Positions 10,697 through 64,000 of a DNA stretch of 64,000 nucleotides are shown here, piece after piece. A program made the translations under genes and the position numbers. The stretch lies in IMG/VR virus record IMGVR_UViG_3300012016_000001, positions 1 through 64,000 of that record; one strand, written 5' to 3'. Every line of letters starts with the position of its first letter. Positions within the stretch are counted from its first letter, which is position 1. The DNA is from a virus (Duplodnaviria; Heunggongvirae; Uroviricota; Caudoviricetes). The notes beneath the pieces are model-generated. The model was given only the letters and a program-made list of their open reading frames with translations. It did no database searches and was not told the origin of the DNA.

Positions 10697-10704
10697 ATAG
10701 ATTA

Positions 10705-11345: not shown

Positions 11346-11348
11346 TAT

Positions 11349-11421: not shown

Positions 11422-11429
11422 CTATTGTT

Positions 11430-11961: not shown

Positions 11962-11979
11962 CAATTAAATATTTTAATT

Positions 11980-12183: not shown

Positions 12184-12252
12184 TGGTAGCACATCTGACT
12201 TTGACTCAGAAGGGAGCGTGAGCCACTGCAGGTTCGAGTCCTGCTGCTCCTA
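12169..12252 (+). tRNA. tRNA-Gln(TTG) with a 17-nt variable region; overlaps the last 15 nt of the ACP-like CDS
   Basis: Acceptor AGGAGCA/TGCTCCT, anticodon arm TCTGA-CTTTGAC-TCAGA, variable region AGGGAGCGTGAGCCACT (GC-GTGA-GC mini-hairpin), T-arm GCAGG-TTCGAGT-CCTGC. Confidence 0.7.
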
Positions 12253-12290
12253 CTTGTCTCCATTAAGGAGAATTTTAAAGGTGTTTGTTC

Positions 12291-12320
12291 AACTCACTGG
12301 TTTGCGAAAATAGGTGAGTT
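12291..12320 (+). ncRNA. conserved-loop hairpin H3 (loop TGGTTTGCGAAAATAG), 6 nt upstream of a tRNA
   Basis: Stem AACTCAC/GTGAGTT. Confidence 0.5.
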
Positions 12321-12325
12321 TAAAT

Positions 12326-12410
12326 GCTGCGTTCGACTAGTGGCTTAGGTCACAAGACTTTCAATCTTGTAGGATGAAAATCCTCAGGGGTTCGAATCCC
12401 CTACGCAGTA
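12326..12410 (+). tRNA. tRNA-Glu(TTC) with a 16-nt variable arm
   Basis: Acceptor GCTGCGT/ACGCAGT, anticodon arm CAAGA-CTTTCAA-TCTTG, variable arm T-AGGAT-GAAA-ATCCT-C, T-arm AGGGG-TTCGAAT-CCCCT. Confidence 0.75.
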
Positions 12411-12414
12411 CTAA

Positions 12415-12488
12415 GGGAGCTTAGTTCAGTGGTTTAGAACACTGCCCCTACAAGGCAGGAGTCGATAGTTCGAATCTATCAGTTCCCA
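12415..12488 (+). tRNA. tRNA-Val(TAC) with C at position 33
   Basis: Acceptor GGGAGCT/AGTTCCC, anticodon arm CTGCC-CCTACAA-GGCAG, T-arm GATAG-TTCGAAT-CTATC. Confidence 0.8.
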
Positions 12489-12515
12489 CGACAACTTTGT
12501 AAATCAACTGGGAAA

Positions 12516-26298: not shown

Positions 26299-27551
26299 AA
26301 ACGTTAAAATTTCTTAAGGACTGGTTTTGATGATTCATATTTTCTATATTAGTTATAATAAAATTATAACAATATGGAAATTAATGAAAAAATTGAAACT
26401 GGAGTCAAAATGTACCTGAATGGTGATGGCACATTAACACAATTACAGAGTATACTTGGAATTAGTAAAGATTTAATAGTAGCTAGATTAAAGGAATTAG
26501 GATATACAATTAAAAGAGGCTATAAACTATCTACAGTAATAGGGTTAAAGGCTGCTACTGAAGAATATTTAGCTAATTATAATAATAATCCTAGTTTGAC
26601 TCAAATAGCTGCTAAACATGGAATAAAAAGACAAACTCTTTCTTCACACGTTAAAGAATTAGGTTATGAAGTTATTAATCATCAAGATAGATTGAAATTT
26701 GATAACACTATATTTGATAGCATTGATACAGAAGAAAAGGCTTATTGGTTAGGATTTATATTTGCAGATGGATATGTAAGTGATAATAATGATTTTGAAG
26801 TATCTTTAAGTATTAAAGATTTTACTCACTTAAATTTATTGCATTTATTTATGAAGACTGAAAAGCCTGTCGGATTTAATGAGACTAGATGTAGACTATG
26901 TGTGAGAGATACTCACTTAGTAAATACTCTTAAGTCTTATGGTTGTATACCAAGAAAATCCTTAGTCTTAGAATTTCCAGAAGAAAAAATCTTTAAAGAT
27001 ATTAAACTTATAAGACATTTTATAAGAGGATTTGTTGATGGGGATGGATGCATTACTTACATCAATAAGGAACATACAAAGCCTCAACTCTCTATTTTAG
27101 GAACAGAGCAATTTCTAAATAAACTTCAGGAGTATTTACCTATTGATTTTATACATCAATTAGGATATAATAATAAATCTAAGAGTTTAGTAACTAGAGT
27201 TTTATCCTTTAATGGAAGTACTGCTTACAATGTTTGTAAGTTTCTATATCAAAATTCTAAAGTGTACCTAGATAGAAAATATGAGAAATTTTTAGAAATT
27301 TGCCGTTCAGAGGAGGAATCTTCTGAATTATTACTGGGCAAAAACGGTGAAGGCTGTGATGCTCCCGCCGTGGTAAATTCAGAAATTGCGAAAGGTTCTG
27401 AATCACCGTACAGCGTAGAGAGTGAATAAATATAATCTCTCCAAGAGTGCCTGGCACCCCAACTGAAATAAGTGGGTGAAAACGTACGCGGGACTTAAGC
27501 AAATAAGAAGCTTAAGAAACTAAGATAAAAAGCTTAGTGGTAACAAAATCG
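26299..27551 (+). mobile_element. group I intron carrying a LAGLIDADG homing endonuclease gene
   Basis: Splicing GGT|...tcG|AAG ACT ACC restores GGTGSGKTTF. The 5' exon ends in T and the intron ends in G. GC-rich paired segments occur near the ORF 3' end and downstream of it. Confidence 0.6.
26374..27429 (+). CDS. LAGLIDADG homing endonuclease (double motif) with N-terminal HTH-like repeats
   Basis: YWLGFIFADGYV and IRGFVDGDGCI motifs. Confidence 0.8.
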   Translation: MEINEKIETGVKMYLNGDGTLTQLQSILGISKDLIVARLKELGYTIKRGYKLSTVIGLKAATEEYLANYNNNPSLTQIAAKHGIKRQTLSSHVKELGYEVINHQDRLKFDNTIFDSIDTEEKAYWLGFIFADGYVSDNNDFEVSLSIKDFTHLNLLHLFMKTEKPVGFNETRCRLCVRDTHLVNTLKSYGCIPRKSLVLEFPEEKIFKDIKLIRHFIRGFVDGDGCITYINKEHTKPQLSILGTEQFLNKLQEYLPIDFIHQLGYNNKSKSLVTRVLSFNGSTAYNVCKFLYQNSKVYLDRKYEKFLEICRSEEESSELLLGKNGEGCDAPAVVNSEIAKGSESPYSVESE

Positions 27552-30605: not shown

Positions 30606-31631
30606 ATGAGTATGGATTTTAGTTTTTATCTTGAACCTAAAATTACTAAAGACTTTCTTCTTTCTTATAATAAAGAAGAAGTTTACATGTCCTTCTACTT
30701 AGGTATTCCTATTAAAAAGGGATTATTTTGTTCTCCGTTAAGAAAGGATAATACTCCAACTTGTTCTTTCTATAGGAATAAACAAGGTGATTTAATCTTT
30801 AAGGATTTTAATGGTTCTTTTTATGGTAACTTTATTTCAGTAGTAATGTACAAGTACAGCATTGGTTATAATGAGGCTTTAAGAACTATAGCCAATGATT
30901 TTAGCCTTATACATACTCCTGGATATGTAAAGCATAAGGGAATTGTTCGTGATAATATTCCGACTTTTGAAACTCCAGAAACTGCACTCATTCAAGTAGA
31001 AATACAAGAATTTCTTGATTCTGAACTTGAGTGGTGGGCAAGTTATGGAATTACTTCTAAGTTGTTGAAGAAGTATCATGTATACTCTTGTAAGAATATC
31101 TTTTTAAATGGGAATTACTTTATGGCCTCAACCAAATCATGTCCTGCGTATGGTTATTATGGAGGCAAAGAAGACAATGTAGAACTTTGGAGAATATACT
31201 TTCCAAAGAAAAAACAGTATAGATTCCTCACTAATTGGAAAGCTAAACAAGTACAAGGTTATCAGCAATTACCTAAAGAAGGAAAGTTATTAGTAATTAC
31301 AAAATCAATGAAAGATGTAATGTGTCTTGCAGGACTAGGCATTAAAGCTATTGCCCCAAATAGTGAAAATTTATTTATACCAGATAAAATGTTAGAAGAA
31401 TTAAAACAGCGTTTTTCATATATAGCCGTACTATATGATAACGATCTTCCAGGCATTAGTAATATGAATAAGATTAAAAAACAACACCCTGAACTTAAAT
31501 ATCTATGGATTCCTCGTAAGTATGGGGCTAAAGATATTTCTGATTTTAGAAAGAAGTACGGTGAGAAAGTTACTAAACAATTTATTAAAGAAACTATTAT
31601 TAAGGTATGGAAGAGCTCTTTGAAACTGTAG
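30606..31631 (+). CDS. DNA primase (zinc finger plus Toprim)
   Basis: CSPLRKDNTPTCSF zinc-finger-like segment and Toprim LYDNDLPG. Confidence 0.65.
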   Translation: MSMDFSFYLEPKITKDFLLSYNKEEVYMSFYLGIPIKKGLFCSPLRKDNTPTCSFYRNKQGDLIFKDFNGSFYGNFISVVMYKYSIGYNEALRTIANDFSLIHTPGYVKHKGIVRDNIPTFETPETALIQVEIQEFLDSELEWWASYGITSKLLKKYHVYSCKNIFLNGNYFMASTKSCPAYGYYGGKEDNVELWRIYFPKKKQYRFLTNWKAKQVQGYQQLPKEGKLLVITKSMKDVMCLAGLGIKAIAPNSENLFIPDKMLEELKQRFSYIAVLYDNDLPGISNMNKIKKQHPELKYLWIPRKYGAKDISDFRKKYGEKVTKQFIKETIIKVWKSSLKL

Positions 31632-31849
31632 AGTTAATGAATAGTTCTAGCTATAAAGACAGATTTATAGCTGAATACTGGCAGAATAAGATAAGGTATG
31701 ATAAATTGCAGAATATGGTAAATAATTGGGACAGCTTAAAGTTTAAGCCTACGTGTCCGTTATCTATTTATCTATTGCAGTTAGAATATATGGAAAAGTA
31801 TATTGCTATACTTGAAATGAGAGCAGTTGCAGAAGGCATTGTATTATGA
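31607..31849 (+). CDS. hypothetical protein
   Basis: 80-aa ORF. Confidence 0.4.
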   Translation: MEELFETVELMNSSSYKDRFIAEYWQNKIRYDKLQNMVNNWDSLKFKPTCPLSIYLLQLEYMEKYIAILEMRAVAEGIVL

Positions 31850-37782: not shown

Positions 37783-39474
37783 ATGGAAATAATGAAAGTA
37801 ATTAAACGTGATGGAAAATTGGAGGAATTTGATGCCTCTAAAATAAAGGCAGCTATTAGGGCTGCCTTTAAAAGTGCAGATGAAGAATTTGACGAAGAAT
37901 TAATAGATGATATATTCAATGATCTTCCTTTATGGGATGAAATGACTATTGATTCTATAGAAGATCAAATAATTGAAGTTCTGAATGACTTTAACTATGA
38001 AAATGTAGCTAGAGAGTATCTATTCTATAAATGGGAACACCAGAAAGCTCGTAATTTAGCAGAGAGCAAGAGGTCCTTTATAGAAAGATATAAAGAAGCT
38101 ACTAATACTGCAAATGCTACTATAGATGACAATAGTAATGTCGGGAATAAGAATATAGGTATACTTAATGCAGAAGGCCACAAGACTGAGAATATTTTAG
38201 TTAGTAGGGCAATGATAAAGAGTAAACTTAAAAGCTTGTTTCTTGACTTTGATGCTAAACAGTATGTAAGAGACTTGAAAAGTCATATAATTTATAAGCA
38301 TGACGAGTCTAGTTTTATGGGTGCTATTGCTCCTTACTGCTGTTCTATATCTATGTATCCTTTCCTCATAGGAGGAATAAAGGGTATAGGTGGTCTTTCT
38401 GCAGCTCCTAAGAATCTTGATAGTTATTGTGGAATGTATGTTAATCTTATATTTGCAATAGCTGGGCAGTTTGCTGGAGCAGTTGCTACTCCTGAATTTT
38501 TATTGTATTTTGACTATTTTGCACGTAAACAATGGGGAGATTTATATTATCAAAAACCTAATGTTCAGACTACCAGTGATTATGTACTACGTAAAATGAC
38601 AATACAAAAGGAAATACATCAATATTTTCAACAAGTTATTTATAGTATTAATCAACCAGCAGCTGCAAGAGGTATGCAATCTGCATTTGTGAACTTTGCA
38701 TATTTTGATAAACCATTTTTTGAAGCAATGTTTGGAAATTTTGTATTTCCAGATATGTCTACTCCTAAGTGGGAATCTCTAAATTGGTTACAAAAAGAGT
38801 TTATGCGATGGTTTAATTCAGAAAGATGTAAATGTATTCTAACTTTCCCTGTAGAATCTTTTGCTCTTATTTATAAAGATGGTAAGTTCTTAGATGAGGA
38901 AAATGCAAAGTTTGTTGCAGAAGAATACTCTAATGGTCATAGCTTTTTTACATATATTTCTGATACTGCTGATAGTTTGTCTTCTTGTTGCCGCCTCAAA
39001 AACAAAGTGGATACAAAAGAATTTAACTTTACCAATGGAAACATGGGTGTGGAGACGGGCTCAAAGAGTGTTATAACTCTTAATTTAAATAGGATTATAC
39101 AAGATTGGTGTAAGTTTATAGGAGGAGTTCCGAAAGTGGGAAATCAATATGACAGTTTACGTCTTTATTTAAGAAATATTCTTCAAAGAGTATATAAATA
39201 TCATATAGCATATAATGAATGCTTATGGGATATGTATGATGCTGGATTACTTCCAGTTTATTCCAATGGATTTATATCTCTTAACAAGCAATATCTAACT
39301 ATCGGACTTAATGGACTTAACCAGGCAGCAGAATTCTTAGGCATTGAGTGTAATGTAAATCAAGAATATCAAGACTTCTGCCAAGCTGTATTCTCTATCA
39401 TAAAGGAAGCTAATTCTGAAGCTAATGGAAAATACTTTGGACACAAAGTTACATTTAATACTGAATGTGTCCCT
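37783..39474 (+). CDS. nrdD: anaerobic ribonucleoside-triphosphate reductase NrdD, exon 1
   Basis: N-terminal ATP-cone (VIKRDGKLEEFDASKI) and class III RNR core ending FNTECVP at the predicted 5' splice site. Confidence 0.8.
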
Positions 39475-40504
39475 AGACTCAGTGGGGACGTTAAACCTCT
39501 ATTGATTGACTTGGAAGCCCCTAGAGGGCAACAGGGCGCAAGCAGAAGCGTTTGTAAGTTTCGTGCAGCGTGAACGACTAAGTATAGAGGCTCCTTAAGT
39601 TACTGCAGTGATGCAGTTCTTTTGGGAGATGCGATAGTCTGAACTCTATGGTAACATAGAGAGGAAATTTGAAGAAATTTCCCATCCAAACTTGTTTTCT
39701 CATAAAACACTTATTAAGTTTGTTCTATGTAATAAATGAAAATGTTATTTAAAATTTTTATGAAAATGGAACAAGAAGTACGTAAGTGTTGTATTTGTGG
39801 AGCGTCAGTAGGAAATGGAACTGACAAAGTTTACAAATTTTCAGATGGAAATATGTATTGCAAGAAGCACTATCTTCAGATGTATAGACATGGACATATA
39901 ATAGAAAGAACTATATATGATCCAAATGAATATATAGAATATGAAGATTATGCAGAATGTATATGTTATGATAAATCTGGAAATGAGAAAGGAAGAGTAA
40001 AAATAGATCTAGATAAAGTTTCTTTAATAAAAAAGCATAAAGTGTACATAAGAAAACAAAATGACAAAATTTATGCAGCGATTTCCATTGATAATAAAAA
40101 GGTAATGCTCCATAGATATTTAATGGAAATAATTAATGAAGAATATTCTATTAATAAAGTTGTTGATCATATAAATGGAGATTCTTTAGATAATAGGATT
40201 TCTAATTTAAGAATTTGTACACATAAACAAAATATGCAAAATATAAGAAAGAAAAATAAAATAGTAGGAGTATCTAAAAGTCCTAATAAAAATAATAGAT
40301 GGATTGCAAGAATAATGCATAATTATAAAACTATTAATTTAGGATATTTTGATACTTATGCAGAGGCCACTTTAGCTCGTATACAAAAAGAAAAGGAAAT
40401 CTGTGGAGAGTATGGGCCTAACAAGGATTTATTTTACGTTTTGGATCTCCCTTCTCCATTGGAAGAATTACAAAAATTTGTTCCAGAAGGGGTGTAACAG
40501 AATG
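39475..40504 (+). mobile_element. group I intron carrying an HNH-AP2 homing endonuclease gene
   Basis: Splicing CCT|...aatG|GCT GAA restores the conserved VPAE. The 5' exon ends in T and the intron ends in G. A GC-rich structured 260 nt, including GATAGTCTGAAC (group I core-like), precedes the ORF. Confidence 0.65.
39736..40497 (+). CDS. HNH homing endonuclease with an AP2-like DNA-binding domain
   Basis: VDHINGDSLDNRISNLRICTHKQN (HNH) and NRWIARIMHNYKTINLGYFDTYAEA (AP2-like). Confidence 0.75.
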   Translation: MKMLFKIFMKMEQEVRKCCICGASVGNGTDKVYKFSDGNMYCKKHYLQMYRHGHIIERTIYDPNEYIEYEDYAECICYDKSGNEKGRVKIDLDKVSLIKKHKVYIRKQNDKIYAAISIDNKKVMLHRYLMEIINEEYSINKVVDHINGDSLDNRISNLRICTHKQNMQNIRKKNKIVGVSKSPNKNNRWIARIMHNYKTINLGYFDTYAEATLARIQKEKEICGEYGPNKDLFYVLDLPSPLEELQKFVPEGV

Positions 40505-40978
40505 GCTGAAAGTTTAGCTGCTAAGAATTATAATTGGGATAAAGAAGATGGATATTGGGTACCTGAAGATACTAATCTATACGCATCTTATATATTTAAG
40601 CCTAATGATAAGTCTGTAAGTATTCTAGATAAAATTACATTACATGGTTCTAATTATATAGGAGATTATTTAGACGGAGGAAGTGCTGCACATATTAATC
40701 TAGCAGACCATCCTTCTTTCTTCCAAGCCTGGAAAATTCTAAATTTTGCAGCAGAACAAGGATGTCAGTATTTTACTTTTAATGTTCCTAATTCTGAGTG
40801 TCAAGATTGTGGATGGATAGGTAAAAAACCAGTAAAAGTATGTCCTAGATGTGGTTCTACGCATATAGATTACTATGATAGAATTATTGGTTATTTAACT
40901 AAAATACGTAATTGGGCAGATTGCCGTAAAATTGAACAAAAAACTAGAGTTTATGAAAAATTCGAAGATAGAGCCTGA
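40505..40978 (+). CDS. nrdD: NrdD, exon 2 (zinc ribbon and glycyl-radical motif)
   Basis: CQDCG...CPRCG zinc ribbon and DRIIGYL glycyl-radical-type C-terminus. Confidence 0.8.
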   Translation, partial: AESLAAKNYNWDKEDGYWVPEDTNLYASYIFKPNDKSVSILDKITLHGSNYIGDYLDGGSAAHINLADHPSFFQAWKILNFAAEQGCQYFTFNVPNSECQDCGWIGKKPVKVCPRCGSTHIDYYDRIIGYLTKIRNWADCRKIEQKTRVYEKFEDRA

Positions 40979-41337: not shown

Positions 41338-41660
41338 AGAGAAGAAGAAAGGAACTTGAACAATACTTTGAATCTCTTTATGATAAAGACAAAATCTTTA
41401 TAATAGAGAAAGCTAAAGAGTATTCCAACGGAAATAAAGAAATTGCTCAAGCATATCTAGATGGATATAAAGAGTCCATTAGAAATCCTCATACTCGTAT
41501 AATACGTTTAATAGTAATGTATACTCTTGACTATATTCCTTACTATAGAAAGATTCCTACTATTAAACATATAACTACTTGTATAAGAGATATATTTAGA
41601 AACAAACTGTACCCTAAGGAATCATTTAACGAAACAAATGAAGATTCTGATAATTCCTGA
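41319..41660 (+). CDS. hypothetical protein
   Basis: 113-aa ORF. Confidence 0.45.
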   Translation: MDGSEVKRRRKELEQYFESLYDKDKIFIIEKAKEYSNGNKEIAQAYLDGYKESIRNPHTRIIRLIVMYTLDYIPYYRKIPTIKHITTCIRDIFRNKLYPKESFNETNEDSDNS

Positions 41661-42375
41661 TGTACATGGCCGGAGATTCTGGAGAGAACCATGTGAAGAC
41701 ATGTCCCAATGGGATAAAGTAATATTCTTAGGAGATTATGTTGATCCTTATGAAGGAGAAGCTACTAAAAAAGATACTGTAGAAGAGCTTAAATCTATTA
41801 TAGCTCTTAAAGAGATATATAAGGATAAAGTAATATTACTCTGGGGAAATCATGACTTATTTTATTGGTGTAAACCGTACAGGGAAATGCTTGAGTACTG
41901 GTCCAGGCATGACTATAACAGACACGACGAGATACAAACCATTTTTAACCAAGCAAACAGCCTCTTTCAGTTTGCCTATTCGGAAGGTGACATATTATTT
42001 ACTCATGCAGGAGTAAACAATTCTTTTGCACGTTTCTTGGTAGATGATTGTGGATATGACTGTATAAATGCAAAGCATATTAATGATTACTTTGGTAAGG
42101 AAGAAAATCAAAAAGAACTTGCTAAAGTATCTATGTATAGGTGGGGACCAGATAGATATGGAAGTATAGTATGGAGTGATATTCGTGAAATTTATGGGCA
42201 AACCCCTTGTCTAGATTTAGAAGGTATATTCCAAATATTTGGGCATACATATGCAAAAACTTATATTATGACTAAATATTTCGCTATGCTTGACATGGGA
42301 AGAGAGTGGTTTCAACTGTTAGATGGAGTATTATTAGATAAGGATAATAATTTACTAAAAATTACAAAACTATGA
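41638..42375 (+). CDS. metallophosphoesterase (Ser/Thr phosphatase-like)
   Basis: IIPDVHGR, GDYVDPY, GNHD, GHT motifs. Confidence 0.7.
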   Translation: MKILIIPDVHGRRFWREPCEDMSQWDKVIFLGDYVDPYEGEATKKDTVEELKSIIALKEIYKDKVILLWGNHDLFYWCKPYREMLEYWSRHDYNRHDEIQTIFNQANSLFQFAYSEGDILFTHAGVNNSFARFLVDDCGYDCINAKHINDYFGKEENQKELAKVSMYRWGPDRYGSIVWSDIREIYGQTPCLDLEGIFQIFGHTYAKTYIMTKYFAMLDMGREWFQLLDGVLLDKDNNLLKITKL

Positions 42376-43524: not shown

Positions 43525-43673
43525 TTGACTATACATTAGGATGTATAGATATATATACTATTCCAAGGGAAGAAGATCCTCAAGAATGGTTAGACAAGAA
43601 TAATAAATGGAATCCTAGTAGTTGTGAATGGATAGGACACGATGGTATTTTACCTATTACTATTCATGCTTGA
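43506..43673 (+). CDS. small hypothetical protein (55 aa)
   Basis: Fills the gap between track ORFs. Its stop overlaps the helicase start. Confidence 0.3.
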   Translation: MQQIAVIDYTLGCIDIYTIPREEDPQEWLDKNNKWNPSSCEWIGHDGILPITIHA

Positions 43674-45072
43674 TTTTACTAAATTAACTGAAGAACTTAA
43701 GAAACCTAAAAGAGAATTTGAGCTTGGAGAAGAACAACTCCAGGCTCTTTCCCTTATTAAGGACTTTATAAAGAATAGTAAAGATATTGCTTTTTCCTTA
43801 TGTGGTTCTGCAGGAACTGGAAAAACAACGTTGGAAAAAGAAATAATAGATTTTCTAAATGATGAATGGATTGATTATTCATTATGCGCTCCAACACATA
43901 AAGCTGCATTAGTTATGCGTCAAACTACAAAAGAAGATGCTATTACTTTGCATAAGTTATTAGCATTATCTCCTAATGTTGAAATACTTGATTTAGACTT
44001 TAGAGAGTTACAATTTAAAACTTCTAGAGTAGTTAATGCTATAATTCCAAAAAGTGTAGTTATATGTGATGAAGCTTCAATGATTAATGATGATTTATTC
44101 GATCTTCTTATTCAAAAATGTTCAGATAAGAAAGCTAAGATTATATTTTTAAGTGATAGTAAGCAACTTAACCCTGTTAAAAGTAGAAAGTGTTCAAAAG
44201 TATATGATTTACCTAACCAGTTTGAGTTGACTCATATATATAGGCAAGCCCAGGAAAGTGCCCTTACACCGCTTCTAGCAAGGCTCAGAGAGCATAAACT
44301 AGGTCACCTGGACAGTAAGCAAGGTGAGGCAGGAAACCTCATTGTAACCTCTAATATGAAGGAATTTTTAGAGGCAGCTAAAGTGCAATTTTTGGAAGCA
44401 ATTGATACACGAAATATATTGCAAACTAAAATTGCTGCCTATACTAATACGAGAGTATCTCTCTTTAATCAAGCTATTCGTAACTTTTTATGGAATGATG
44501 AAGAGCCCTATCATAAGGGTGAATTTTTAACTTCTTACGAAAATGCTGATTTTGAAGGTACAATGTTCTATAACTCAATGGATTACGTAGTTGCAAATGA
44601 ACCTGAAGAAGTTACTACTGAACTTCCTCACTTCTATGCAAAGGTAAAAGGTTATCTTTTAGATTTATGGGATGCCTATGATAAATACACAAAAGAGTGT
44701 TTTATTCTATCTAAAGATAATCCAGAAATTGTTTTTGAACAATTAGCATCTATCCTTGAAGCGATAAGATTCAAAGCAATTGAATCCAAACAAACTAGTT
44801 CCTTTAAAGCCTCTTTATATTGGAAACAATATTATGAATTACTTCATAGTTTTGTGACTCCTATACCATTGGTTTATGAAGGGAGAGTTGTTAGAAAGAA
44901 GTCTTTTGATTACGGTTATGCTTCTACTTCACATAAGTTACAAGGTTCCACTTATAATACGATATTCGTAGATTTAAGGAATATTAATACTTGTACTGAT
45001 GAAGCTGTTAAAAAACAATTACAATATGTAGCTTTATCTAGGACTAGAACTGATGCTTATGTATTACAATGA
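43666..45072 (+). CDS. Dda/RecD-like superfamily 1 DNA helicase
   Basis: GSAGTGKTT, CAPTHKAA, VICDEASMI, SHKLQGSTY, YVALSRTR motifs. Confidence 0.8.
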   Translation: MLDFTKLTEELKKPKREFELGEEQLQALSLIKDFIKNSKDIAFSLCGSAGTGKTTLEKEIIDFLNDEWIDYSLCAPTHKAALVMRQTTKEDAITLHKLLALSPNVEILDLDFRELQFKTSRVVNAIIPKSVVICDEASMINDDLFDLLIQKCSDKKAKIIFLSDSKQLNPVKSRKCSKVYDLPNQFELTHIYRQAQESALTPLLARLREHKLGHLDSKQGEAGNLIVTSNMKEFLEAAKVQFLEAIDTRNILQTKIAAYTNTRVSLFNQAIRNFLWNDEEPYHKGEFLTSYENADFEGTMFYNSMDYVVANEPEEVTTELPHFYAKVKGYLLDLWDAYDKYTKECFILSKDNPEIVFEQLASILEAIRFKAIESKQTSSFKASLYWKQYYELLHSFVTPIPLVYEGRVVRKKSFDYGYASTSHKLQGSTYNTIFVDLRNINTCTDEAVKKQLQYVALSRTRTDAYVLQ

Positions 45073-53789: not shown

Positions 53790-54370
53790 TTATTAAATCA
53801 CAAAGTCAGGTATTCGATAACGGAGCACTTGATATGGCAATGAACCTTTTACACGTACAACAAGGTGAATGGAGTAATTGTCCAAAAGAAAATCTATTTC
53901 TAGACTTTAGAGGAAATCTCTATAAAGATGAAAAAGATAAGTGGAAAATTACGGGATTTGAACTTGATGAAGAGTTTGTAGAAAGAGACTATAAAACTAA
54001 TGAAGTTAAAGGTCCAGCCCACGAATTAGATATGTTTCCAATTGAGAAACTTATTAAATGGGACTTAGACGGTTATATAAAATATCCTCTTATCAATATA
54101 AAATCTATCAAATTCTATTCAGATACATGTAAGAGTTGGAGAGAAAATATTCCTTGTATTACTATAGAAATTGAATCTGATAATGATGAAGCTATAAGAG
54201 AAATCTTTACAATGCTAGCAGGTCTTGCTAATGGTGGTCACTGCTGTGGAGGATATATTAGAGTTAATAAAGATCAAATGTTACATGGTGGGCATGTAGC
54301 TAACTTTGGACTAGATGGAGACGGTTCAGATAGAATATATTATGTCGATGATAAAGAAATGCCCTTATGA
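53783..54370 (+). CDS. hypothetical protein
   Basis: 195-aa ORF. Confidence 0.5.
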   Translation: MVVIKSQSQVFDNGALDMAMNLLHVQQGEWSNCPKENLFLDFRGNLYKDEKDKWKITGFELDEEFVERDYKTNEVKGPAHELDMFPIEKLIKWDLDGYIKYPLINIKSIKFYSDTCKSWRENIPCITIEIESDNDEAIREIFTMLAGLANGGHCCGGYIRVNKDQMLHGGHVANFGLDGDGSDRIYYVDDKEMPL

Positions 54371-54636
54371 AAAATACAGTAACCATTGAACAAGTAAAAG
54401 AAAATATGCAAGATGTAATAGTACGTACTTTAGATGACTTTGGTAAGCCTTGTACTTATGTAACAGTACGTATGAAGAATGGATTTACACTACGTGAATC
54501 TACTACTTGTGTAGATCCAGCTAACTATAACGAAGAAATCGGAAAAGAAATTTGTTTAAGAAAAATTGAAGATAAGATTTGGTTTTTACTTGGATACCAA
54601 CTTCAAGAAGACTTATACCGTAGTGGAGTACTATGA
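54367..54636 (+). CDS. N4 Gp49/Sf6 gp66-like phage protein
   Basis: NGFTLRESTTCVDPANYNEEIGKEICLRKIEDKIWFLLGY fits that family's pattern. Confidence 0.5.
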   Translation: MKNTVTIEQVKENMQDVIVRTLDDFGKPCTYVTVRMKNGFTLRESTTCVDPANYNEEIGKEICLRKIEDKIWFLLGYQLQEDLYRSGVL

Positions 54637-59693: not shown

Positions 59694-59929
59694 ATGAAGA
59701 AAAACAACAAAAAGTAGAAGCAATGCAGGAACTTCTTGAAAATGAAGATATTAAAAGAATGTGGCTGAAAATGCACACTCCTTGGATACATACAGATAAA
59801 AAGGTAGGACGTAATGAAATATGTCCCTTCTGTGATTCAGGAAAGAAGTATAAGCATTGTGAATGCTATAAGAAGAAAGATGTAGCTAAATTCAGATTAG
59901 ATACAAAACATACAAAAGGATGGAACTAA
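59687..59929 (+). CDS. SEC-C motif small protein
   Basis: NEICPFCDSGKKYKHCEC. Confidence 0.5.
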   Translation: MVNEEKQQKVEAMQELLENEDIKRMWLKMHTPWIHTDKKVGRNEICPFCDSGKKYKHCECYKKKDVAKFRLDTKHTKGWN

Positions 59930-60537
59930 TAAAGAAATATGAGAATGGGGACAACCTGTTCTTTACATCTGATACCCACTTCTATCATGCCAACATTATA
60001 AAGTTTTGTGGTCGTCCATTTGAAGACGTAGAAGAAATGAATAAAACTTTAATAGACAACTGGAACAAAACTGTTGGAAAGAATGATATTGTTTATCATC
60101 TTGGAGACTTTTGCTTTGCAGGTTCAGCTGCATGGTACTCTTTACTTAGTCAATTAAATGGAAGAATTCACTTAATAGTTGGAAATCATGATGAAAAGAA
60201 TCTTAGGCAGGGTTATTCCCAAATGTTTGAGTCAACATCCTATCAGCAGCGCTTACTTATTGAAGGTTATAATGTGTACCTTAATCATTATCCTTATCTG
60301 TGTTATCCAGGGTATAAGCCCTATACAATGCAGCTTTTTGGTCATATTCATAGTAGCCACAATAAGTTTGATGGAATGGACGCTCAAATTGCGAAAGCTC
60401 AGTTACAACCATCTCAATATGATGTGGGAGTAGATTGGAATAACTTTACTCCCATTAGTTGGGAAGAGATAAAACAAAAGATTATTAAACAAAAAGAAGA
60501 AAATGTTAATATGTACGGTAAATCCAAAAAATTATGA
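59920..60537 (+). CDS. metallophosphoesterase
   Basis: FFTSDTHF, LGDF, GNHD, GHIH motifs. Confidence 0.7.
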   Translation: MELIKKYENGDNLFFTSDTHFYHANIIKFCGRPFEDVEEMNKTLIDNWNKTVGKNDIVYHLGDFCFAGSAAWYSLLSQLNGRIHLIVGNHDEKNLRQGYSQMFESTSYQQRLLIEGYNVYLNHYPYLCYPGYKPYTMQLFGHIHSSHNKFDGMDAQIAKAQLQPSQYDVGVDWNNFTPISWEEIKQKIIKQKEENVNMYGKSKKL

Positions 60538-61103
60538 ACAAAACTCTAATTATCGTAGACCCACAGTATGACTTTATAGAAGGTGGAAAACTTCCAGTAG
60601 AAGGAGGTAAACAAGCGTTAGACAATGTTGTTGATTACCTTAATTCTGGAGAGGTATCTTTAGTCATCATCACACAAGATTGTCATAATGGAATGCATTG
60701 CTCATTTAAAGAGCAAGGAGGACCATGGCCAGAACATTGTGTTGAAGGAACTCATGGAGCAGAAATTTATAAACCTATATTAGATGCTATAGAGAAAAAC
60801 CATATTATGGTCTATTATCTACAGAAAGGACATTACTTAGAAGAGTATTCTGCTTTTCGTAGACAAACAGAAGGATATGCTCACTGGAAAGAGTATTCTA
60901 CAGAAGATGATAGAGAACCTTATATTCAGTTCCATGAAGATGAAATAGTTCAAATTTGTGGATTAGCTGGAGATGTTTGTGTTATGAGGACTGCTATAAT
61001 CCTTAAAGATATCAAACCCGTAATCATTGAAGATTTAACTGCTTCTTTAAATGCTGATAACTTTAGGAAACTTGCAGACATAAATGGAATTACAATAGTA
61101 TGA
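60534..61103 (+). CDS. pncA: nicotinamidase (isochorismatase family) PncA
   Basis: IIVDPQYDF (Asp), QDCHNGMHCSF (metal-site D-x-H...H-x-SF pattern), ICGLAGDVCV (catalytic Cys). Confidence 0.7.
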   Translation: MNKTLIIVDPQYDFIEGGKLPVEGGKQALDNVVDYLNSGEVSLVIITQDCHNGMHCSFKEQGGPWPEHCVEGTHGAEIYKPILDAIEKNHIMVYYLQKGHYLEEYSAFRRQTEGYAHWKEYSTEDDREPYIQFHEDEIVQICGLAGDVCVMRTAIILKDIKPVIIEDLTASLNADNFRKLADINGITIV

Positions 61104-61915
61104 TTAATAATCCAGTTTTAGGAGCAATCATAGGGGACATAATAGGTGTTCCCTATGAGTTCCTTCGAGTGCCTGGGACTAGTATTCCTAAGAATTTCCC
61201 ATTGTTCAAGAAAGATAGTCATTATTCAGATGATTCTGTAATGACTCTAGCTGTAGCAAGATGGTTATTAGAAAAAGATTTAAGTTCATCTGCCTTAATA
61301 AAGTGCATGCAGGAAGTTGGACAAGCACATCCAAATGCAGGTTATGGTGGAATGTTCAGAAGATGGCTATGGGATGAAAATCCAGTCCCATATAATAGTT
61401 GGGGAAATGGCTCAGCTATGCGTGTCAGTCCAGTTGCCTGTGCTTTTGATACAGAACAAGATGTCTTGAAATATGCAAAAATATCAGCTGATGTGTCACA
61501 TAATCACCCAGAAGGTGTAAAGGGTGCACAAGCTATTGCTTTTGCTATTTGGGCAGCACAAGATTGTTGGGGAAAAGATCCTATTAAATTTGAAGTAAGA
61601 GATTTTACTCAGTATGATTTAAATAGGACTCCTAGAGAAATCATAGATTCTGGATATTCTTTTGAAGTAAGTTGTCAAAAGTCTGTGCCTGAAGCAATAT
61701 GCTGTTTCTTAGATAGTAATTCTTATGAGGAGACTGTAAGAAAGGCTGTCTTACTTAAAGGAGATACAGATACTCAAGCTTGTATGGCTGGAGCTATAGC
61801 TGCAGCTTATTGGGGAATTCCAGAAGATATTGCAAGAAAAGGTATTGACTTACTTCCTGGAGACCTATTTGATATTTTGTATGATTTTAGTGACGAATTT
61901 AATTTACCATTATGA
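61100..61915 (+). CDS. ADP-ribosylglycohydrolase family protein
   Basis: GAIIGDIIGVPYEF, SDDSVMT, GDTDT motifs. Confidence 0.7.
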   Translation: MINNPVLGAIIGDIIGVPYEFLRVPGTSIPKNFPLFKKDSHYSDDSVMTLAVARWLLEKDLSSSALIKCMQEVGQAHPNAGYGGMFRRWLWDENPVPYNSWGNGSAMRVSPVACAFDTEQDVLKYAKISADVSHNHPEGVKGAQAIAFAIWAAQDCWGKDPIKFEVRDFTQYDLNRTPREIIDSGYSFEVSCQKSVPEAICCFLDSNSYEETVRKAVLLKGDTDTQACMAGAIAAAYWGIPEDIARKGIDLLPGDLFDILYDFSDEFNLPL

Positions 61916-63093
61916 TTTTAAGTATTTTAGACACTGATTTGTATAAGTTTACGACATCGTATGCTTATCAAAAGTTATACCCTAAAGCAATGGGTACGTT
62001 TGAGTATGTAGACAGAAATAACAACGTCTATGAGGATTCTTTTTTAATAGCCTTGAAAGAACAAATTAATATCCTAGAGACTATTAAATTAACACCTTCT
62101 GAATTCTTCAGTATACTTAATAATAAGTGGTTATCTAGATTTATTCCAACTTCTTATTGGGAATGGTTAAAGCAATTTAACTTTGAACCTAATAAGATTA
62201 AAGTCTGGCTTGATGAAAATAAACATTTACATATTACAGTTACTGATTACTTATATAAGGTGACTCTATATGAAGTTCCGTTACTTTATACAGTATCTGA
62301 ATGCTACTATAAGTACTATAATAAGTTAGCTAATTATGATTTGATGTTTGATAATTTAAAACAGAAAATCACTTTTGCTAATGAAGAAAATCTAATATTT
62401 TCTGAATTTGGCACTAGAAGAAGGTATTCTTCTAATATACATGAACAAGTTATTAAATATCTAAAAGATCATTCTAAAACTTGTGTAGGAACTTCTAATG
62501 TTTACTTTGCATTAAAATATGATATGATGCCCTGTGGTACTTTTCCACATGAATGGGTAATGTTCCATGGTGCAGTATGGGGATTTCAACAAGCTAATGA
62601 ACTTGCTATGAGAGACTGGGTAAGATGCTATGATGGAGATTTAGGAACTGTACTTGTAGATACATACACTACTAAATTTTTCTTAAAGCAATTCTCACGT
62701 AAGTATAGTAAGTTGTTTGATGGTCCTCGTATTGACTCTGGAGATGAAAGAGAGCTTGGAGATTTATTCATAGAGCATTATAAAGCTCTTAATATAAATC
62801 CACTTACTAAAACTTTAGTAATGAGTAATGCTCTTACATTTCCTAAGTTTAAAGAGATTAGAGATTATTTTGCTGGACGTATTAATGTTGTCGCTGGAAT
62901 AGGCACTAATCTTACCAATGACTGTGGAGTTGTACCACTCAATGAAGTTATGAAACTTATAGAATGCCAAGAATATGAAGGAGCACCTAAACTCCCTTGT
63001 ATTAAACGTTCTGATGATAAAGGTAAACGTCTGGGCAATGCTGTACAACATGATATCTTAGACCATATTTTATTAAATGCCTCGCAAGTCTAA
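61912..63093 (+). CDS. pncB: nicotinate phosphoribosyltransferase PncB
   Basis: N-terminal LDTDLYKFT, EFGTRRR, and C-terminal phosphoribosyltransferase core. Confidence 0.7.
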   Translation: MILSILDTDLYKFTTSYAYQKLYPKAMGTFEYVDRNNNVYEDSFLIALKEQINILETIKLTPSEFFSILNNKWLSRFIPTSYWEWLKQFNFEPNKIKVWLDENKHLHITVTDYLYKVTLYEVPLLYTVSECYYKYYNKLANYDLMFDNLKQKITFANEENLIFSEFGTRRRYSSNIHEQVIKYLKDHSKTCVGTSNVYFALKYDMMPCGTFPHEWVMFHGAVWGFQQANELAMRDWVRCYDGDLGTVLVDTYTTKFFLKQFSRKYSKLFDGPRIDSGDERELGDLFIEHYKALNINPLTKTLVMSNALTFPKFKEIRDYFAGRINVVAGIGTNLTNDCGVVPLNEVMKLIECQEYEGAPKLPCIKRSDDKGKRLGNAVQHDILDHILLNASQV

Positions 63094-63358
63094 TAAAAAG
63101 GAAAAGGTGGTTATGCCTACTAGACCAGTAGGTGTACCACCCAAGCCTAAAGAAAAGTTGACTCCTGGACAAGTCTTGTATTGTTGGTATCCTCCAACTA
63201 ATGAATTCTATAAGAGGGTATATTTAAGAGATTATAAGGGAGAAGATGAAATCTTATGCGCAGATCCAGATACTAAGCAGCAATGGATTTTAAATCAATC
63301 TCATTTACATAGTACAATTTTAACTGAAAAAGAGTATGTGGAACAAATGGATAAATGA
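63077..63358 (+). CDS. hypothetical protein
   Basis: 93-aa ORF. Confidence 0.45.
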   Translation: MPRKSNKKEKVVMPTRPVGVPPKPKEKLTPGQVLYCWYPPTNEFYKRVYLRDYKGEDEILCADPDTKQQWILNQSHLHSTILTEKEYVEQMDK

Positions 63359-64000
63359 ATCTGTAGAGTGCCTTAAATGGTATATAGAAAGAAACAAACT
63401 TAAGAGTGTAGTTCTAGGATTAAGTGGAGGTATTGATAGTACTGTATCTGCAGTAATTTGTCATCTAGCTACTAAAGATAATCCTAACTGTACGTTTATC
63501 GGTAGAAGTCTCCCAATTAAAAATGAAGGAGATGATACATCGATAGCTAAAAAGCTTGGACAAGTTCTTTGTAACGATTTTGCAGAAGTGAATTTGTATG
63601 ATTCTTATAAGTTCTTTAGAGATTCATTCTATAAAGAGGAAGAGGAATCAAAGGCTACTCCAATTTCAGATGGAAACATAATGGCTCGTATCCGTATGAT
63701 ATATCTTTATCAACTTGCTTCCCTTTATAAAGGAATGGTTATAGATACGGATAATTTAAGTGAACATCTTTTAGGTTTCTATACACTTCATGGAGATGTT
63801 GGTGACTATAACATAGGAATCAGATACCTCTATAAGCATGAAATATGGGAACTTGCAAAAGAACTGACTAGTTGGGTTCCAAATGCAAAGAAGTTCATAG
63901 AGGAATCTATGGCTCTTGATCCTACAGATGGTAATGTTGGTGGTACAGATATGGACCAGATTGCTCCTGGAATGACATATGCTGATGTTGATTACGTACT
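63336..64000 (+). CDS. nadE: NAD+ synthetase NadE, 3' end outside window
   Basis: ATG at 63336. GLSGGIDS PP-loop motif. Frame stays open to the window end, which is why it is absent from the ORF track. Confidence 0.7.
   Translation, partial: MWNKWINESVECLKWYIERNKLKSVVLGLSGGIDSTVSAVICHLATKDNPNCTFIGRSLPIKNEGDDTSIAKKLGQVLCNDFAEVNLYDSYKFFRDSFYKEEEESKATPISDGNIMARIRMIYLYQLASLYKGMVIDTDNLSEHLLGFYTLHGDVGDYNIGIRYLYKHEIWELAKELTSWVPNAKKFIEESMALDPTDGNVGGTDMDQIAPGMTYADVDYV

What the first reader, a model, noticed from the sequence alone, without database searches (positions are those of the whole stretch)
59920..64000. Phage NAD+ salvage island: PncA, PncB and NadE with an ADP-ribosylglycohydrolase and a metallophosphoesterase
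Five consecutive overlapping genes encode a metallophosphoesterase, nicotinamidase PncA (Asp/Cys catalytic and metal-site motifs present), an ADP-ribosylglycohydrolase, nicotinate phosphoribosyltransferase PncB, and (after one small ORF) NAD synthetase NadE (SGGIDS motif). These are three of the four Preiss-Handler steps from nicotinamide to NAD+. NadD may lie beyond the window. Nicotinamide and ADP-ribose are the products of NAD-depleting defence effectors (SIR2 and TIR domains). Published phage counter-defence routes use other enzymes (Nampt/Nmnat, or ADPR-pyrophosphate and nicotinamide ADPR-transferase pathways). A deamidating PncA-PncB-NadE route coupled to an ADP-ribosyl hydrolase would be a distinct solution (inference).
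Basis: partly seen in the sequence, partly recalled or inferred. Interest (0 to 1): 0.7.

Follow-up and report, generated by a model that had tools for sequence, protein, structure and literature searches.

The report
Phage nicotinamide-to-NAD salvage gene cluster
A large crAss-like gut phage packs into one gene array all four enzymes that turn nicotinamide back into NAD+, plus an ADP-ribose-type Nudix hydrolase and an ARH3-like hydrolase; the module is real and common in gut phages, but similar phage clusters have already been reported from metagenomes and its proposed counter-defence role is untested.

Summary
Window 59920-64000 encodes, on the + strand with overlapping stops and starts, a metallophosphoesterase, a nicotinamidase (PncA), an ARH3-like ADP-ribosylhydrolase, PncB, a 93-aa ORF and NH3-dependent NadE. 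The parent contig (about 194 kb, wolf gut) continues with NadD, an ADP-ribose-type Nudix, YqeY and a dNMP kinase, then a strong terminator.

The phage is a large crAss-like phage, probably of Bacteroidales. PncA-PncB-NadE-NadD-Nudix is a conserved phage module: 56 of 66 IMG/VR loci with full flanks carry all five, in at least six gene orders, with catalytic residues invariant. The nearest bacterial pncB genes (Bacteroides, 50-54%) stand alone, so the clustering arose in phages.

ARH is accessory. It lies inside the island only in this sub-clade and sits next to nrdD in related phages.

The best reading is a complete deamidating NAD+ re-synthesis module that supports replication and plausibly counters NAD-depleting defence. 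The phage also carries Sequestin-family and Acb4-family (anti-Thoeris and anti-CBASS sponge) genes.

Phage Preiss-Handler clusters were already reported bioinformatically (Li 2024). No experiment has tested this route, and it differs from NARP1-3. Verdict: a new member of a known kind, moderately interesting.

The parts
59920..60537 (+). Metallophosphoesterase 'MPE-A' (205 aa), aq_1665 / phrog_547 type. Membership in the NAD module is uncertain.
   Evidence: PF00149 at 7.8e-9. Best PDB match is 1XM7, hypothetical protein aq_1665: 1.8e-13 with the single sequence, 4.4e-31 with a profile. phrog_547 'phosphoesterase' at 2.8e-56. Metal-site residues D18, H20, D63, N89, H90, H123, H142 and H144 are conserved in 47-49 of 49 distinct phage homologues. 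The gene overlaps pncA by 4 nt.
60534..61103 (+). Nicotinamidase PncA (189 aa): nicotinamide + H2O -> nicotinate + NH3
   Evidence: PF00857 at 3.5e-12. The best PDB hits are nicotinamidases (1IM5/1ILW 1.2e-19, 3R2J, 3PL1, 2H0R, 2WT9). D9, D49, H51, H68 and C149 align to the P. horikoshii catalytic and Zn residues. D9, D49, H51, H68, K98 and C149 are invariant in 61-62 of 62 distinct phage homologues. The NCBIfam PncA equivalog scores only 46.9 bits against a cutoff of 174.
61100..61915 (+). ARH3-like ADP-ribosyl(glyco)hydrolase (271 aa); lineage-specific insert between pncA and pncB
   Evidence: PF03747 at 5.5e-40. Best PDB sequence hits are ARH3 (6G1P at 1.2e-18). The AlphaFold model has pLDDT 93.1, and its best Foldseek hits are ARH3 structures with TM 0.72-0.81. 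D13, E20, D44, D45, D222, D224 and T225 are invariant in 66-67 of 67 homologues. The gene is absent from the island in L003/L014 and in all more distant loci.
61912..63093 (+). Nicotinate phosphoribosyltransferase PncB (393 aa): nicotinate + PRPP (+ATP) -> NaMN
   Evidence: TIGR01514 at 344.8 bits (cutoff 269.55); PF04095 and PF17767. PDB 2IM5 at 1.3e-90. H213 in the GTFPHEW motif and R169-R171 are invariant in 66 homologues.
63077..63358 (+). Small ORF (93 aa, Lys/Pro-rich N-terminus), function unknown; present only in the close sub-clade
   Evidence: No Pfam, NCBIfam, PHROG or PADLOC match. There are 10 homologues, all in close relatives and all between pncB and nadE.
63336..64000 (+). NH3-dependent NAD+ synthetase NadE, cut by the window end. 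The full gene would end at 64154. In the parent contig it is followed by NadD (64156-64683), Nudix (64631-65299), YqeY (65292-65723), a dNMP kinase (65720-66307) and a terminator.
   Evidence: SGGIDS at residues 30-35. The full 272-aa protein scores 123.3 bits on TIGR00552 (cutoff 63.65) and 1.4e-38 on PF02540. The best PDB hits are NH3-dependent NAD synthetases 3P52 and 1XNG, and there is no glutaminase domain. Downstream genes come from locus L002. The terminator lies at L002 14402-14433.

Best explanation
The island is the front half of a phage-borne, complete deamidating NAD+ salvage and re-synthesis module.

Proposed chemistry:
- PncA deamidates nicotinamide to nicotinate.
- PncB makes NaMN from nicotinate and PRPP.
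- NadD adenylates NaMN to NaAD. NadD lies just past the window end.
- NH3-dependent NadE amidates NaAD to NAD+.
- An ADP-ribose-type Nudix that always travels with these genes most likely splits ADP-ribose into AMP and ribose-5-phosphate. This removes ADPR and feeds PRPP supply through the host Prs.

The genes are translationally coupled. They appear to be co-transcribed with the replication and nucleotide-metabolism genes (PolA, ThyX and others) of a roughly 194-kb crAss-like phage, probably of Bacteroidales.

The likely benefit is to keep NAD+ high in the infected cell. That includes rebuilding NAD+ from the nicotinamide released by SIR2/TIR-type NAD-depleting defences, which makes the module functionally analogous to NARP2 but by the deamidated route.

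The ARH3-like hydrolase and the metallophosphoesterase are accessory neighbours. They may process ADP-ribose conjugates or derivatives, but they are not core parts.

Shown here: gene identities, intact active sites, conserved clustering, and phage-specific assembly of the cluster. Inferred: enzymatic activities and substrate preferences, the Nudix substrate, co-transcription, and the counter-defence benefit.
For: - Identities and intact motifs for all four pathway enzymes.
- NadD and Nudix lie directly downstream in the parent contig.
- Gene junctions overlap or are 1 nt apart. The only strong terminator-like site in the scanned stretch lies after the dNMP kinase.
- Conservation: at least 249 IMG/VR stretches encode PncB relatives. 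Of 66 loci with at least 6 kb on both sides, 65 have PncA, 58 NadE, 57 NadD, 60 Nudix, and 56 have all four within 6 kb, in at least six gene orders.
- Catalytic residues are essentially invariant over 49-67 distinct homologues per family, down to about 35-50% identity.
- The nearest bacterial pncB genes (Bacteroides, Phocaeicola and other Bacteroidales, 50-54%) have none of the partner genes within 8 kb. The cluster was therefore assembled and kept in phages.
- The Nudix profile's best PDB matches are NrtR-family ADPR-binding Nudix domains (2FML, 3GZ5, 3GZ8) and the Nudix domain of bifunctional NadM (2QJT). The Nudix box is intact in 49 of 49 homologues.
- Defence context: the same phage encodes a Sequestin-family (PF21825, a 3'cADPR sponge family) and an Acb4-family (PF13876) protein.
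- NAD-depleting defences release nicotinamide and ADPR, and phage NAD+ rebuilding is a proven counter-measure by other routes.
- Island GC (0.34) matches the window (0.335), so these are long-resident genes.
Against: - No activity, expression or infection data exist for any of these proteins.
- The PncA and NadD scores are below the NCBIfam equivalog cutoffs (46.9 against 174; 108.6 against 112.45).
- The route needs several ATP and host PRPP, so it is a costly way to answer acute NAD+ collapse.
- Bacteroidales hosts already have pncB. The module could simply raise flux for replication, since it sits among ThyX, NrdD and dNMP kinase genes.
- Most supporting loci are related phages with shared synteny, so the counts are not independent events.
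- The Nudix substrate is inferred from distant profile matches only.
- The sigma-70 promoter scan was uninformative: 51 sites found against 59 expected.
Confidence: 0.62

Rival explanations
1. The module is a pure auxiliary metabolic module. It only boosts NAD(P) supply for phage DNA synthesis (ThyX needs NAD(P)H) and general host metabolism in the niacin-rich gut. It has no role against NAD-depleting immunity.
For: - The island is embedded in the replication and nucleotide-metabolism block: NrdD, dUTPase/dCTP deaminase, ligase, PNKP, PolA, ThyX and dNMP kinase.
- It duplicates functions the likely host already has.
- The route is ATP-costly.
- Li et al. 2024 also frame phage NAD synthesis partly as support for phage NAD-dependent enzymes.
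Against: - The phage ligase is ATP-dependent (PF01068), so there is no obvious phage NAD-consuming ligase in the window.
- The invariable inclusion of PncA and an ADPR-type Nudix fits the two NADase products.
- The phage carries Thoeris- and CBASS-sponge family genes.
- Other phage NAD pathways do counter defence.
Confidence: 0.28
2. The ARH, and perhaps the MPE, is an integral step. It frees ADP-ribose from ADP-ribosylated macromolecules or from ADPR-based immune signals and feeds it into the salvage module, making one integrated counter-defence pathway.
For: - In this sub-clade ARH is inserted between pncA and pncB with 4-nt overlaps on both sides.
- An unrelated 429-kb megaphage has NadM-like, MPE-A, NDT-like, PncB, ClpP and ARH genes together.
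- In 51 of 56 loci that carry it, a second MPE family (MPPED2-like) lies from -3 to +237 nt upstream of pncA.
- There is precedent for a ribose-ribose glycosidase (RyDEP) encoded beside NARP1 and feeding it.
- ARH3-like fold and intact active site. ARH3 structures exist with an ADP-ribose dimer bound.
Against: - ARH is absent from the island in 64 of 66 PncB loci with full flanks, and in the close relative L003/L014.
- In at least 9 related loci the orthologue lies directly upstream of nrdD, 18-22 kb from pncB.
- 74 of 80 ARH loci have no NAD gene within 10 kb.
- MPE-A is a very common phage family.
- The deamidating route cannot use ADPR directly.
Confidence: 0.2
3. The Nudix, ARH, MPE and YqeY genes belong to an RNA-repair or ADPR-by-product processing system, linked to the phage PNKP and ligase. 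The NAD enzymes are merely neighbours.
For: - YqeY is fused to a 'Swiss-army-knife' RNA-repair HAD phosphatase in the human-gut relatives.
- ARH lies next to HAD_SAK_2 in L144.
- PNKP and an RNA/DNA ligase are in the window.
- Iyer et al. 2022 link Nudix and calcineurin-like enzymes to ADPr products of RNA repair.
Against: - Nudix tracks PncA, PncB, NadE and NadD through at least six rearranged gene orders.
- Its closest structural-family relatives are NAD-regulon Nudix domains.
- PNKP and the ligase lie 6-12 kb away.
Confidence: 0.08

Closest known systems
Bacterial salvage-I plus universal NAD pathway (PncA-PncB-NadD-NadE), e.g. the NrtR-regulated operon nrtR-pncA-pncB-nadD-nadE of Clostridium acetobutylicum (Rodionov et al. 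2008, PMC2330246)
   Same: The same four enzyme families and the same predicted chemistry. Both also have a Nudix-family gene of the ADPR-recognising branch in the cluster.
   Different: - This one is encoded by a phage.
- The Nudix lacks a wHTH DNA-binding domain and keeps an intact catalytic box, so it is probably an enzyme rather than a repressor.
- The nearest bacterial pncB genes (Bacteroidales) are not clustered.
- Extra ARH and MPE genes are present.
'NAD-jumbo phage' Preiss-Handler gene clusters (pncB-nadD-nadE, e.g. Kuafu_71; Li et al. 2024, Microbiome, PMC11662467)
   Same: A phage-encoded, physically clustered Preiss-Handler pathway from gut metagenomes, with a counter-defence role proposed but untested.
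   Different: - The genome here is about 194 kb and crAss-like, below their 200-kb jumbo cutoff.
- The cluster always includes PncA and a Nudix.
- This sub-clade adds an ARH3-like gene.
- I could not check their supplementary tables for overlap.
NARP2 / KVP40 NadV-NatV (Nampt + Nmnat, the latter fused to Nudix in NatV and NadM)
   Same: Rebuilds NAD+ from nicotinamide using a phosphoribosyltransferase and an adenylyltransferase, accompanied by an ADPR-type Nudix. This route is a proven counter to NAD-depleting defence.
   Different: - The route here is deamidated: it adds PncA and NadE steps and passes through NaMN and NaAD.
- The PRTase is PncB (TIGR01514), not Nampt.
- The adenylyltransferase is NadD-type, not NadM or NadR-type.
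- It costs more ATP.
NARP1 (Adps + Namat), its extensions Adpp and RyDEP, and NARP3 (PnuC + NadR)
   Same: Phage operons that restore NAD+. The precedent of an accessory ADPR-releasing enzyme encoded next to the pathway (RyDEP, Adpp) resembles the ARH and MPE placement here.
   Different: No Adps, Namat, PnuC, NadR, Macro or RyR-domain genes are in the island. ADPR is not a direct substrate of this pathway.
ARH3 (ADPRHL2) / DraG family of ADP-ribosylhydrolases
   Same: Same fold and the same binuclear-metal acidic residues plus catalytic Glu. ARH3 is the best sequence and structure match.
   Different: The phage protein is shorter (271 aa against about 345 aa) and about 22-25% identical. Its substrate is unknown. 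It is a phage protein with a variable genomic position.

Membership tests
Nicotinamidase (PncA; isochorismatase superfamily) | Catalytic triad Asp-Lys-Cys | tested here: met
   D9, K98 and C149 align to P. horikoshii D10, K94 and C133 (residue roles from established knowledge). They are invariant in 61-62 of 62 phage homologues.
Nicotinamidase (PncA; isochorismatase superfamily) | Metal site Asp-His-His (DxH ... HC motif) | tested here: met
   D49, H51 and H68 are aligned to the Zn ligands of 1IM5. They are invariant in 62 of 62 homologues.
Nicotinamidase (PncA; isochorismatase superfamily) | Score above the curated equivalog cutoff (NF008623) | tested here: not met
   46.9 bits against a cutoff of 174. 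The sequence is divergent, so the call rests on motifs and on PDB neighbours that are all nicotinamidases.
Nicotinate phosphoribosyltransferase (PncB) | Score above the equivalog cutoff, both NAPRTase domains present, and a conserved phospho-His | tested here: met
   TIGR01514 at 344.8 bits against 269.55; PF17767 and PF04095. H213 is invariant. PDB 2IM5 at 1.3e-90.
NaMN adenylyltransferase (NadD) | (H/T)xGH motif and C-terminal SxTxxR-type motif; closest relatives are NadD rather than NadM or NadR | tested here: met
   - GSFNPPHYGH motif, with H14, G16 and H17 invariant and R143 present in 56 of 57 homologues.
- Best PDB hits are B. subtilis and B. anthracis NadD.
- NadR, NadM and archaeal models score far lower.
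- TIGR00482 is just under its cutoff (108.6 against 112.45).
NH3-dependent NAD+ synthetase (NadE) | PP-loop SGGxDS, score above cutoff, no glutaminase domain | tested here: met
   SGGIDS at residues 30-35. TIGR00552 at 123.3 bits against 63.65. The protein is a 272-aa single domain. Best PDB hits are NH3-dependent enzymes.
ADP-ribose pyrophosphatase-type Nudix (as in NadM / NrtR ancestry) | Intact Nudix box GX5EX7REUXEEXGU | tested here: met
   G72, E78, R86, E87, E90, E91 and G93 are invariant in 49 of 49 homologues.
ADP-ribose pyrophosphatase-type Nudix (as in NadM / NrtR ancestry) | Specific hydrolysis of ADP-ribose | not testable with these tools
   Only a profile affinity is available: NrtR (2FML at 3.8e-13, 3GZ8, 3GZ5) and NadM-Nudix (2QJT at 2.5e-10). 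No NCBIfam equivalog is reached.
ARH3 / DraG ADP-ribosylhydrolase family | PF03747 fold with binuclear-metal Asp/Thr ligands and a catalytic Glu | tested here: met
   PF03747 at 5.5e-40. D44/D45, D222/D224/T225 and E20 are conserved. The model has pLDDT 93 and TM 0.72-0.81 to ARH3.
NARP2 (Nampt + Nmnat) | A nicotinamide phosphoribosyltransferase (NadV/Nampt) making NMN directly | tested here: not met
   The only PRTase is PncB by equivalog score. PncA and NadE are present, so the route is deamidated.
NARP1 (Adps + Namat) and NARP3 (PnuC + NadR) | PRPS-like Adps with Namat, or a PnuC transporter with NadR | tested here: not met
   No such domains appear among the called genes of the island or the flanking 20 kb. 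The NadR model scores only 31 bits on NadD.
Phage Preiss-Handler 'NAD-jumbo phage' clusters (Li 2024) | pncB, nadD and nadE clustered on a phage genome | tested here: met
   The genome is about 194 kb, just under their 200-kb jumbo threshold.
Anti-defence NAD+ reconstitution system (functional class) | Restores NAD+ and phage replication in cells with NADase defence | not testable with these tools
   Only contextual support is available: Sequestin- and Acb4-family genes in the same phage.

The most novel reading that the evidence does not exclude
[quoted passage not shown] ARH3 does this to the 1''-2' bonds of poly(ADP-ribose), and RyDEP does it beside NARP1. Together with the Nudix and the PncA-PncB-NadD-NadE enzymes it would form a 'NARP4'-type system. 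That system would both silence TIR signalling and rebuild NAD+ by the deamidated route in crAss-like phages of Bacteroidales.
Probability: 0.12. Interest if true: 0.8.

Novelty: new member of a known kind. Interest (0 to 1): 0.5.

Why it matters
NAD+ depletion is a major bacterial anti-phage strategy. Three phage NAD+ rebuilding routes have been proven so far, none of them deamidating and none in the dominant human-gut crAss-like phages.

This analysis shows that a complete PncA-PncB-NadD-NadE-Nudix module is conserved, rearranged but kept together, and assembled specifically in large gut phages of Bacteroidales. That gives a concrete, cloneable candidate for a fourth route.

It also offers two accessory enzymes, the ARH3-like hydrolase and the MPEs, whose substrates could reveal new ADPR-signal chemistry.

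If the module is only a metabolic booster, it is still one of the larger multi-step cofactor pathways carried by phages below 200 kb.

Tried and rejected
- **Megablast of the island against GenBank phages:** no match. tblastn with PncB found only 13 records, so isolates are uninformative.
- **ARH as a core part of the pathway:** rejected by synteny.
- **The cluster as a copied host operon:** rejected for Bacteroidales, where pncB stands alone in the nearest genomes. Firmicutes and Pseudomonas do have similar operons in the literature.
- **The Nudix as an NrtR-like repressor:** unlikely. Most homologues are 158-190 aa with no wHTH, and the catalytic box is intact.
- **MPE-A as an NAD-specific enzyme:** not supported. 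It belongs to phrog_547 and the aq_1665 family of unknown function.
- **NARP1, NARP2 and NARP3 membership:** defining genes are absent.
- **PADLOC:** gave only marginal hits, nothing pointing to a defence system.
- **Sigma-70 promoter scan:** not enriched, and probably the wrong promoter type for this host.
- **Supplementary tables of Li 2024:** not held, so overlap with their phages could not be checked.
- **Look-up of window 43642-45072:** found no record, probably because the called start differs.
- **Literature:** no hit for 'NARP4', and no experimental test of phage PncA or PncB, in the held library.

Full report
**1. Observation**

- A 205-aa metallophosphoesterase at 59920-60537 (PF00149, 7.8e-9).
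- A 189-aa isochorismatase-family protein at 60534-61103 (PF00857, 3.5e-12).
- A 271-aa ADP-ribosylglycohydrolase at 61100-61915 (PF03747, 5.5e-40).
- A 393-aa PncB at 61912-63093 (TIGR01514, 344.8 bits against a cutoff of 269.55).
- A 93-aa ORF with no family at 63077-63358.
- NadE from 63336, cut by the window end, with SGGIDS at residues 30-35.

Successive genes overlap by 4, 4, 4, 17 and 23 nt. Island GC (0.34) equals the window average (0.335).

**2. Beyond the window**

An exact-protein look-up found the parent contigs: two assemblies of about 194 kb from a wolf-gut sample. NadE (272 aa) is followed by four genes.
- A 175-aa NadD-type adenylyltransferase, 1 nt downstream. It has the GSFNPPHYGH motif and scores 108.6 bits on TIGR00482 against a cutoff of 112.45. 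Its best PDB hits are B. subtilis and B. anthracis NadD.
- An overlapping 222-aa Nudix (PF00293, 2.9e-17).
- A YqeY-domain protein.
- A dNMP kinase.

A 14-bp-stem terminator with a T9 tail closes the array at L002 14402-14433, facing a convergent 1535-aa gene. The phage encodes every step from nicotinamide to NAD+.

**3. What the replicon is**

PolA is 50.9% identical to that of Kolpuevirus 'frurule', a crAss-like phage of Bacteroides cellulosilyticus. The next hits are other crAss-like phages. Several further features fit a large crAss-like phage of anaerobic Bacteroidales.
- 22 tRNAs, a tmRNA and an amber-suppressor tRNA.
- A crAss001_48/Sequestin-family gene and an Acb4-family gene.
- A split anaerobic RNR, ThyX, PNKP and an ATP-dependent ligase.
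- IMG/VR relatives of 160-190 kb.

PncB's nearest chromosomal relatives are Bacteroides and Phocaeicola at 50-54% identity.

**4. Are the enzymes what they seem?**

- **PncA.** All significant PDB hits are bona fide nicotinamidases. The alignment places D9, K98 and C149 on the catalytic triad, and D49, H51 and H68 on the metal ligands. The sequence is divergent, though, at 46.9 bits against the equivalog cutoff of 174.
- **PncB.** PDB 2IM5 at 1.3e-90, with an invariant H213.
- **NadE.** Nearest relatives are single-domain NH3-dependent synthetases.
- **ARH.** The best sequence hit is ARH3. An AlphaFold model with pLDDT 93.1 also matches ARH3 best, at TM 0.72-0.81. The Glu and the Asp/Thr metal ligands are conserved.

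Across 49-67 distinct phage homologues per family, the catalytic residues of all seven enzymes are essentially invariant. That argues for purifying selection on activity.

**5. Which genes belong together?**

A scan of IMG/VR with a PncB alignment found 249 relatives, of which 80 were kept. I annotated the loci with family HMMs built in-session.

Of 66 loci with at least 6 kb on both sides of pncB:

| Gene within 6 kb of pncB | Loci (of 66) |
|---|---|
| PncA | 65 |
| Nudix | 60 |
| NadE | 58 |
| NadD | 57 |
| All four | 56 |

At least six different gene orders occur, for example PncA-PncB-NadE-NadD-Nudix, Nudix-PncA-PncB-NadE-NadD, PncA-Nudix-PncB-NadE-NadD and NadE-PncA-PncB-Nudix-NadD. Rearrangement without dispersal is the strongest computational evidence for a functional unit.

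In 80 bacterial and archaeal genome loci, the nearest pncB genes (Bacteroidales) have none of these partners within 8 kb. The cluster is therefore a phage construction rather than a lifted host operon. Analogous operons do exist in Firmicutes and Pseudomonas (nrtR-pncA-pncB-nadD-nadE).

**6. The Nudix**

A profile of 15 phage homologues matches best to NrtR-family Nudix domains and to the Nudix domain of bifunctional NadM.
- 2FML at 3.8e-13, plus 3GZ8 and 3GZ5. Their identities were confirmed.
- 2QJT at 2.5e-10.

NrtR domains bind ADP-ribose, and NadM's Nudix is associated with NAD metabolism. The phage proteins have an intact catalytic box and mostly no extra domain. ADP-ribose pyrophosphatase is the most likely activity, but this is an inference.

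**7. The ARH**

ARH lies in the island only in the window's sub-clade. A close relative (L003/L014) lacks it there, and none of the more distant PncB loci has it.

In related large crAss-like phages the 52-60%-identical orthologue sits immediately upstream of nrdD. Three IMG/VR contigs carry both genes 18-22 kb apart. Of 80 ARH-anchored loci, 74 have no NAD gene within 10 kb. ARH is therefore a family gene that moved into the island.

Two independent hints of a link remain.
- A 429-kb megaphage has NadM-like, MPE-A, NDT-like, PncB, ClpP and ARH genes together.
- L144 has PncA 4 kb from ARH.

**8. The metallophosphoesterase**

MPE-A is aq_1665-like (1XM7) and belongs to phrog_547, a very common phage 'phosphoesterase' of unknown function.

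Unexpectedly, 56 of the 80 PncB loci carry a different MPE, and in 51 of them it lies from -3 to +237 nt upstream of pncA. It resembles MPPED2 (3RL4, 3.6e-9). The window's sub-clade lacks it and has MPE-A abutting pncA instead. An MPE next to pncA is thus recurrent, but its role is unknown.

**9. Mechanism**

The proposed pathway is as follows.
- Nicotinamide to nicotinate plus NH3 (PncA).
- Nicotinate to NaMN (PncB, with PRPP and ATP).
- NaMN to NaAD (NadD).
- NaAD to NAD+ (NadE, which uses NH3).
- ADPR to AMP plus ribose-5-phosphate (Nudix), which the host Prs can return to PRPP.

This uses exactly the two products of SIR2/TIR NADases.

Gene identities, active sites and clustering are shown. 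Substrates, expression and benefit are inferred.

The presence of Sequestin-family and Acb4-family genes in the same phage shows that it is equipped against signalling defences whose effectors include NADases. Sequestin is a 3'cADPR sponge family that cancels type I Thoeris, and Acb4 is an anti-CBASS sponge family. This supports, but does not prove, a counter-defence benefit. A purely metabolic role is the main rival.

**10. Comparison with the known**

- NARP1 (Adps/Namat), NARP2 (Nampt/Nmnat) and NARP3 (PnuC/NadR) use other enzymes.
- The 2022 survey of viral NAD/ADPr systems lists only NadV, NadM and NadR for phage NAD synthesis, and calls ARH domains rare in phages.
- Li et al. 2024 already reported Preiss-Handler clusters (pncB-nadD-nadE) in gut jumbo phages and suggested counter-defence.
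- The Lak megaphage preprint noted nicotinate/nicotinamide interconversion genes.
- PHROGs v4 has no PncB family and no NadD-type family.

I therefore rate this a new member of a known kind. It is a well-resolved, widespread, experimentally untested module, with a lineage-specific ARH insertion as its only unusual feature.

**11. Caveats**

- My ORF calling and HMMs are simple.
- Only the best 80 loci per scan were seen.
- Most loci are phylogenetically related, so the counts overstate independence.
- Whole genomes could not be inspected for ADP-ribosyltransferases or a second ARH copy.

Noticed in passing
window 2739-12489: A dense array of 22 tRNA genes plus a tmRNA at 10705-11064 (tag GENNTTPRAKVVSIVYRAAA). 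It includes a tRNA with anticodon CTA at 7229-7302, an amber suppressor, which hints at TAG recoding as described for some large gut phages.
   Followed up: no
window 31607-31849: An 80-aa protein of Pfam PF21825 (crAss001_48 / 'Sequestin', 2.1e-18). Members of this family were shown to sequester 3'cADPR and cancel type I Thoeris. It points to pressure from TIR/SIR2 NADase defence on this phage.
   Followed up: partly
window 54367-54636: An 89-aa protein of PF13876 (Phage_gp49_66, 4.5e-20), the family named Acb4, an anti-CBASS sponge, in bioRxiv 2025.07.12.664507.
   Followed up: partly
window 37792-40978: The anaerobic ribonucleotide reductase NrdD appears split into two ORFs (37792-39573 and 40502-40978) by an HNH_3 endonuclease gene at 39760-40497, which looks like a homing-endonuclease or intron-type insertion. 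A LAGLIDADG-like ORF at 26374-27429 lies just upstream of the DnaB-like helicase.
   Followed up: no
L001 6196-6900 and 55 further PncB loci (e.g. L023-L079): A second, unrelated metallophosphoesterase (234 aa; best PDB match MPPED2, 3RL4, 3.6e-9) occurs in 56 PncB loci. In 51 of them it lies from -3 to +237 nt upstream of pncA. It is absent from the window's sub-clade, where MPE-A abuts pncA instead.
   Followed up: partly
L138 5701-10801 (IMGVR_UViG_3300025030_000039, 429 kb): An unrelated megaphage has the following genes together: NadM-like NMNAT+Nudix, an unknown ORF, MPE-A homologue, nucleoside 2-deoxyribosyltransferase-like, PncB, ClpP and ARH. This is an independent co-localisation of ARH and MPE-A with NAD genes.
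   Followed up: partly
L010 7001-9723; L013 7001-10068; L097, L098, L100, L102-L105 near 10000-10900: In related large crAss-like phages the ARH orthologue lies immediately upstream of nrdD, with the order ARH, NrdD, MPE2, ligase conserved. This looks like the ancestral position.
   Followed up: yes
L001 14129-15034; also L144 10819-11280: In human-gut relatives, YqeY is fused to a HAD_SAK_2 'Swiss-army-knife' RNA-repair phosphatase. In L144 a HAD_SAK_2 gene follows ARH directly. YqeY follows the NAD module in most loci, and its role is unknown.
   Followed up: no
L201 (ONIZ01000001.1, 410-kb contig labelled 'uncultured Firmicutes bacterium RUG343'): This is the only 'genome' locus with PncA-PncB and NadE together at 51% PncB identity. 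Its size matches the roughly 412-kb IMG/VR megaphage contigs (L080, L083, L089), so it may be a phage contig binned into a bacterial MAG.
   Followed up: no
window 41638-42375: A third metallophosphoesterase (245 aa, PF00149 at 7.2e-11) sits in the nucleotide-metabolism block between NrdD and the Pif1 helicase. Its position is conserved in relatives.
   Followed up: no
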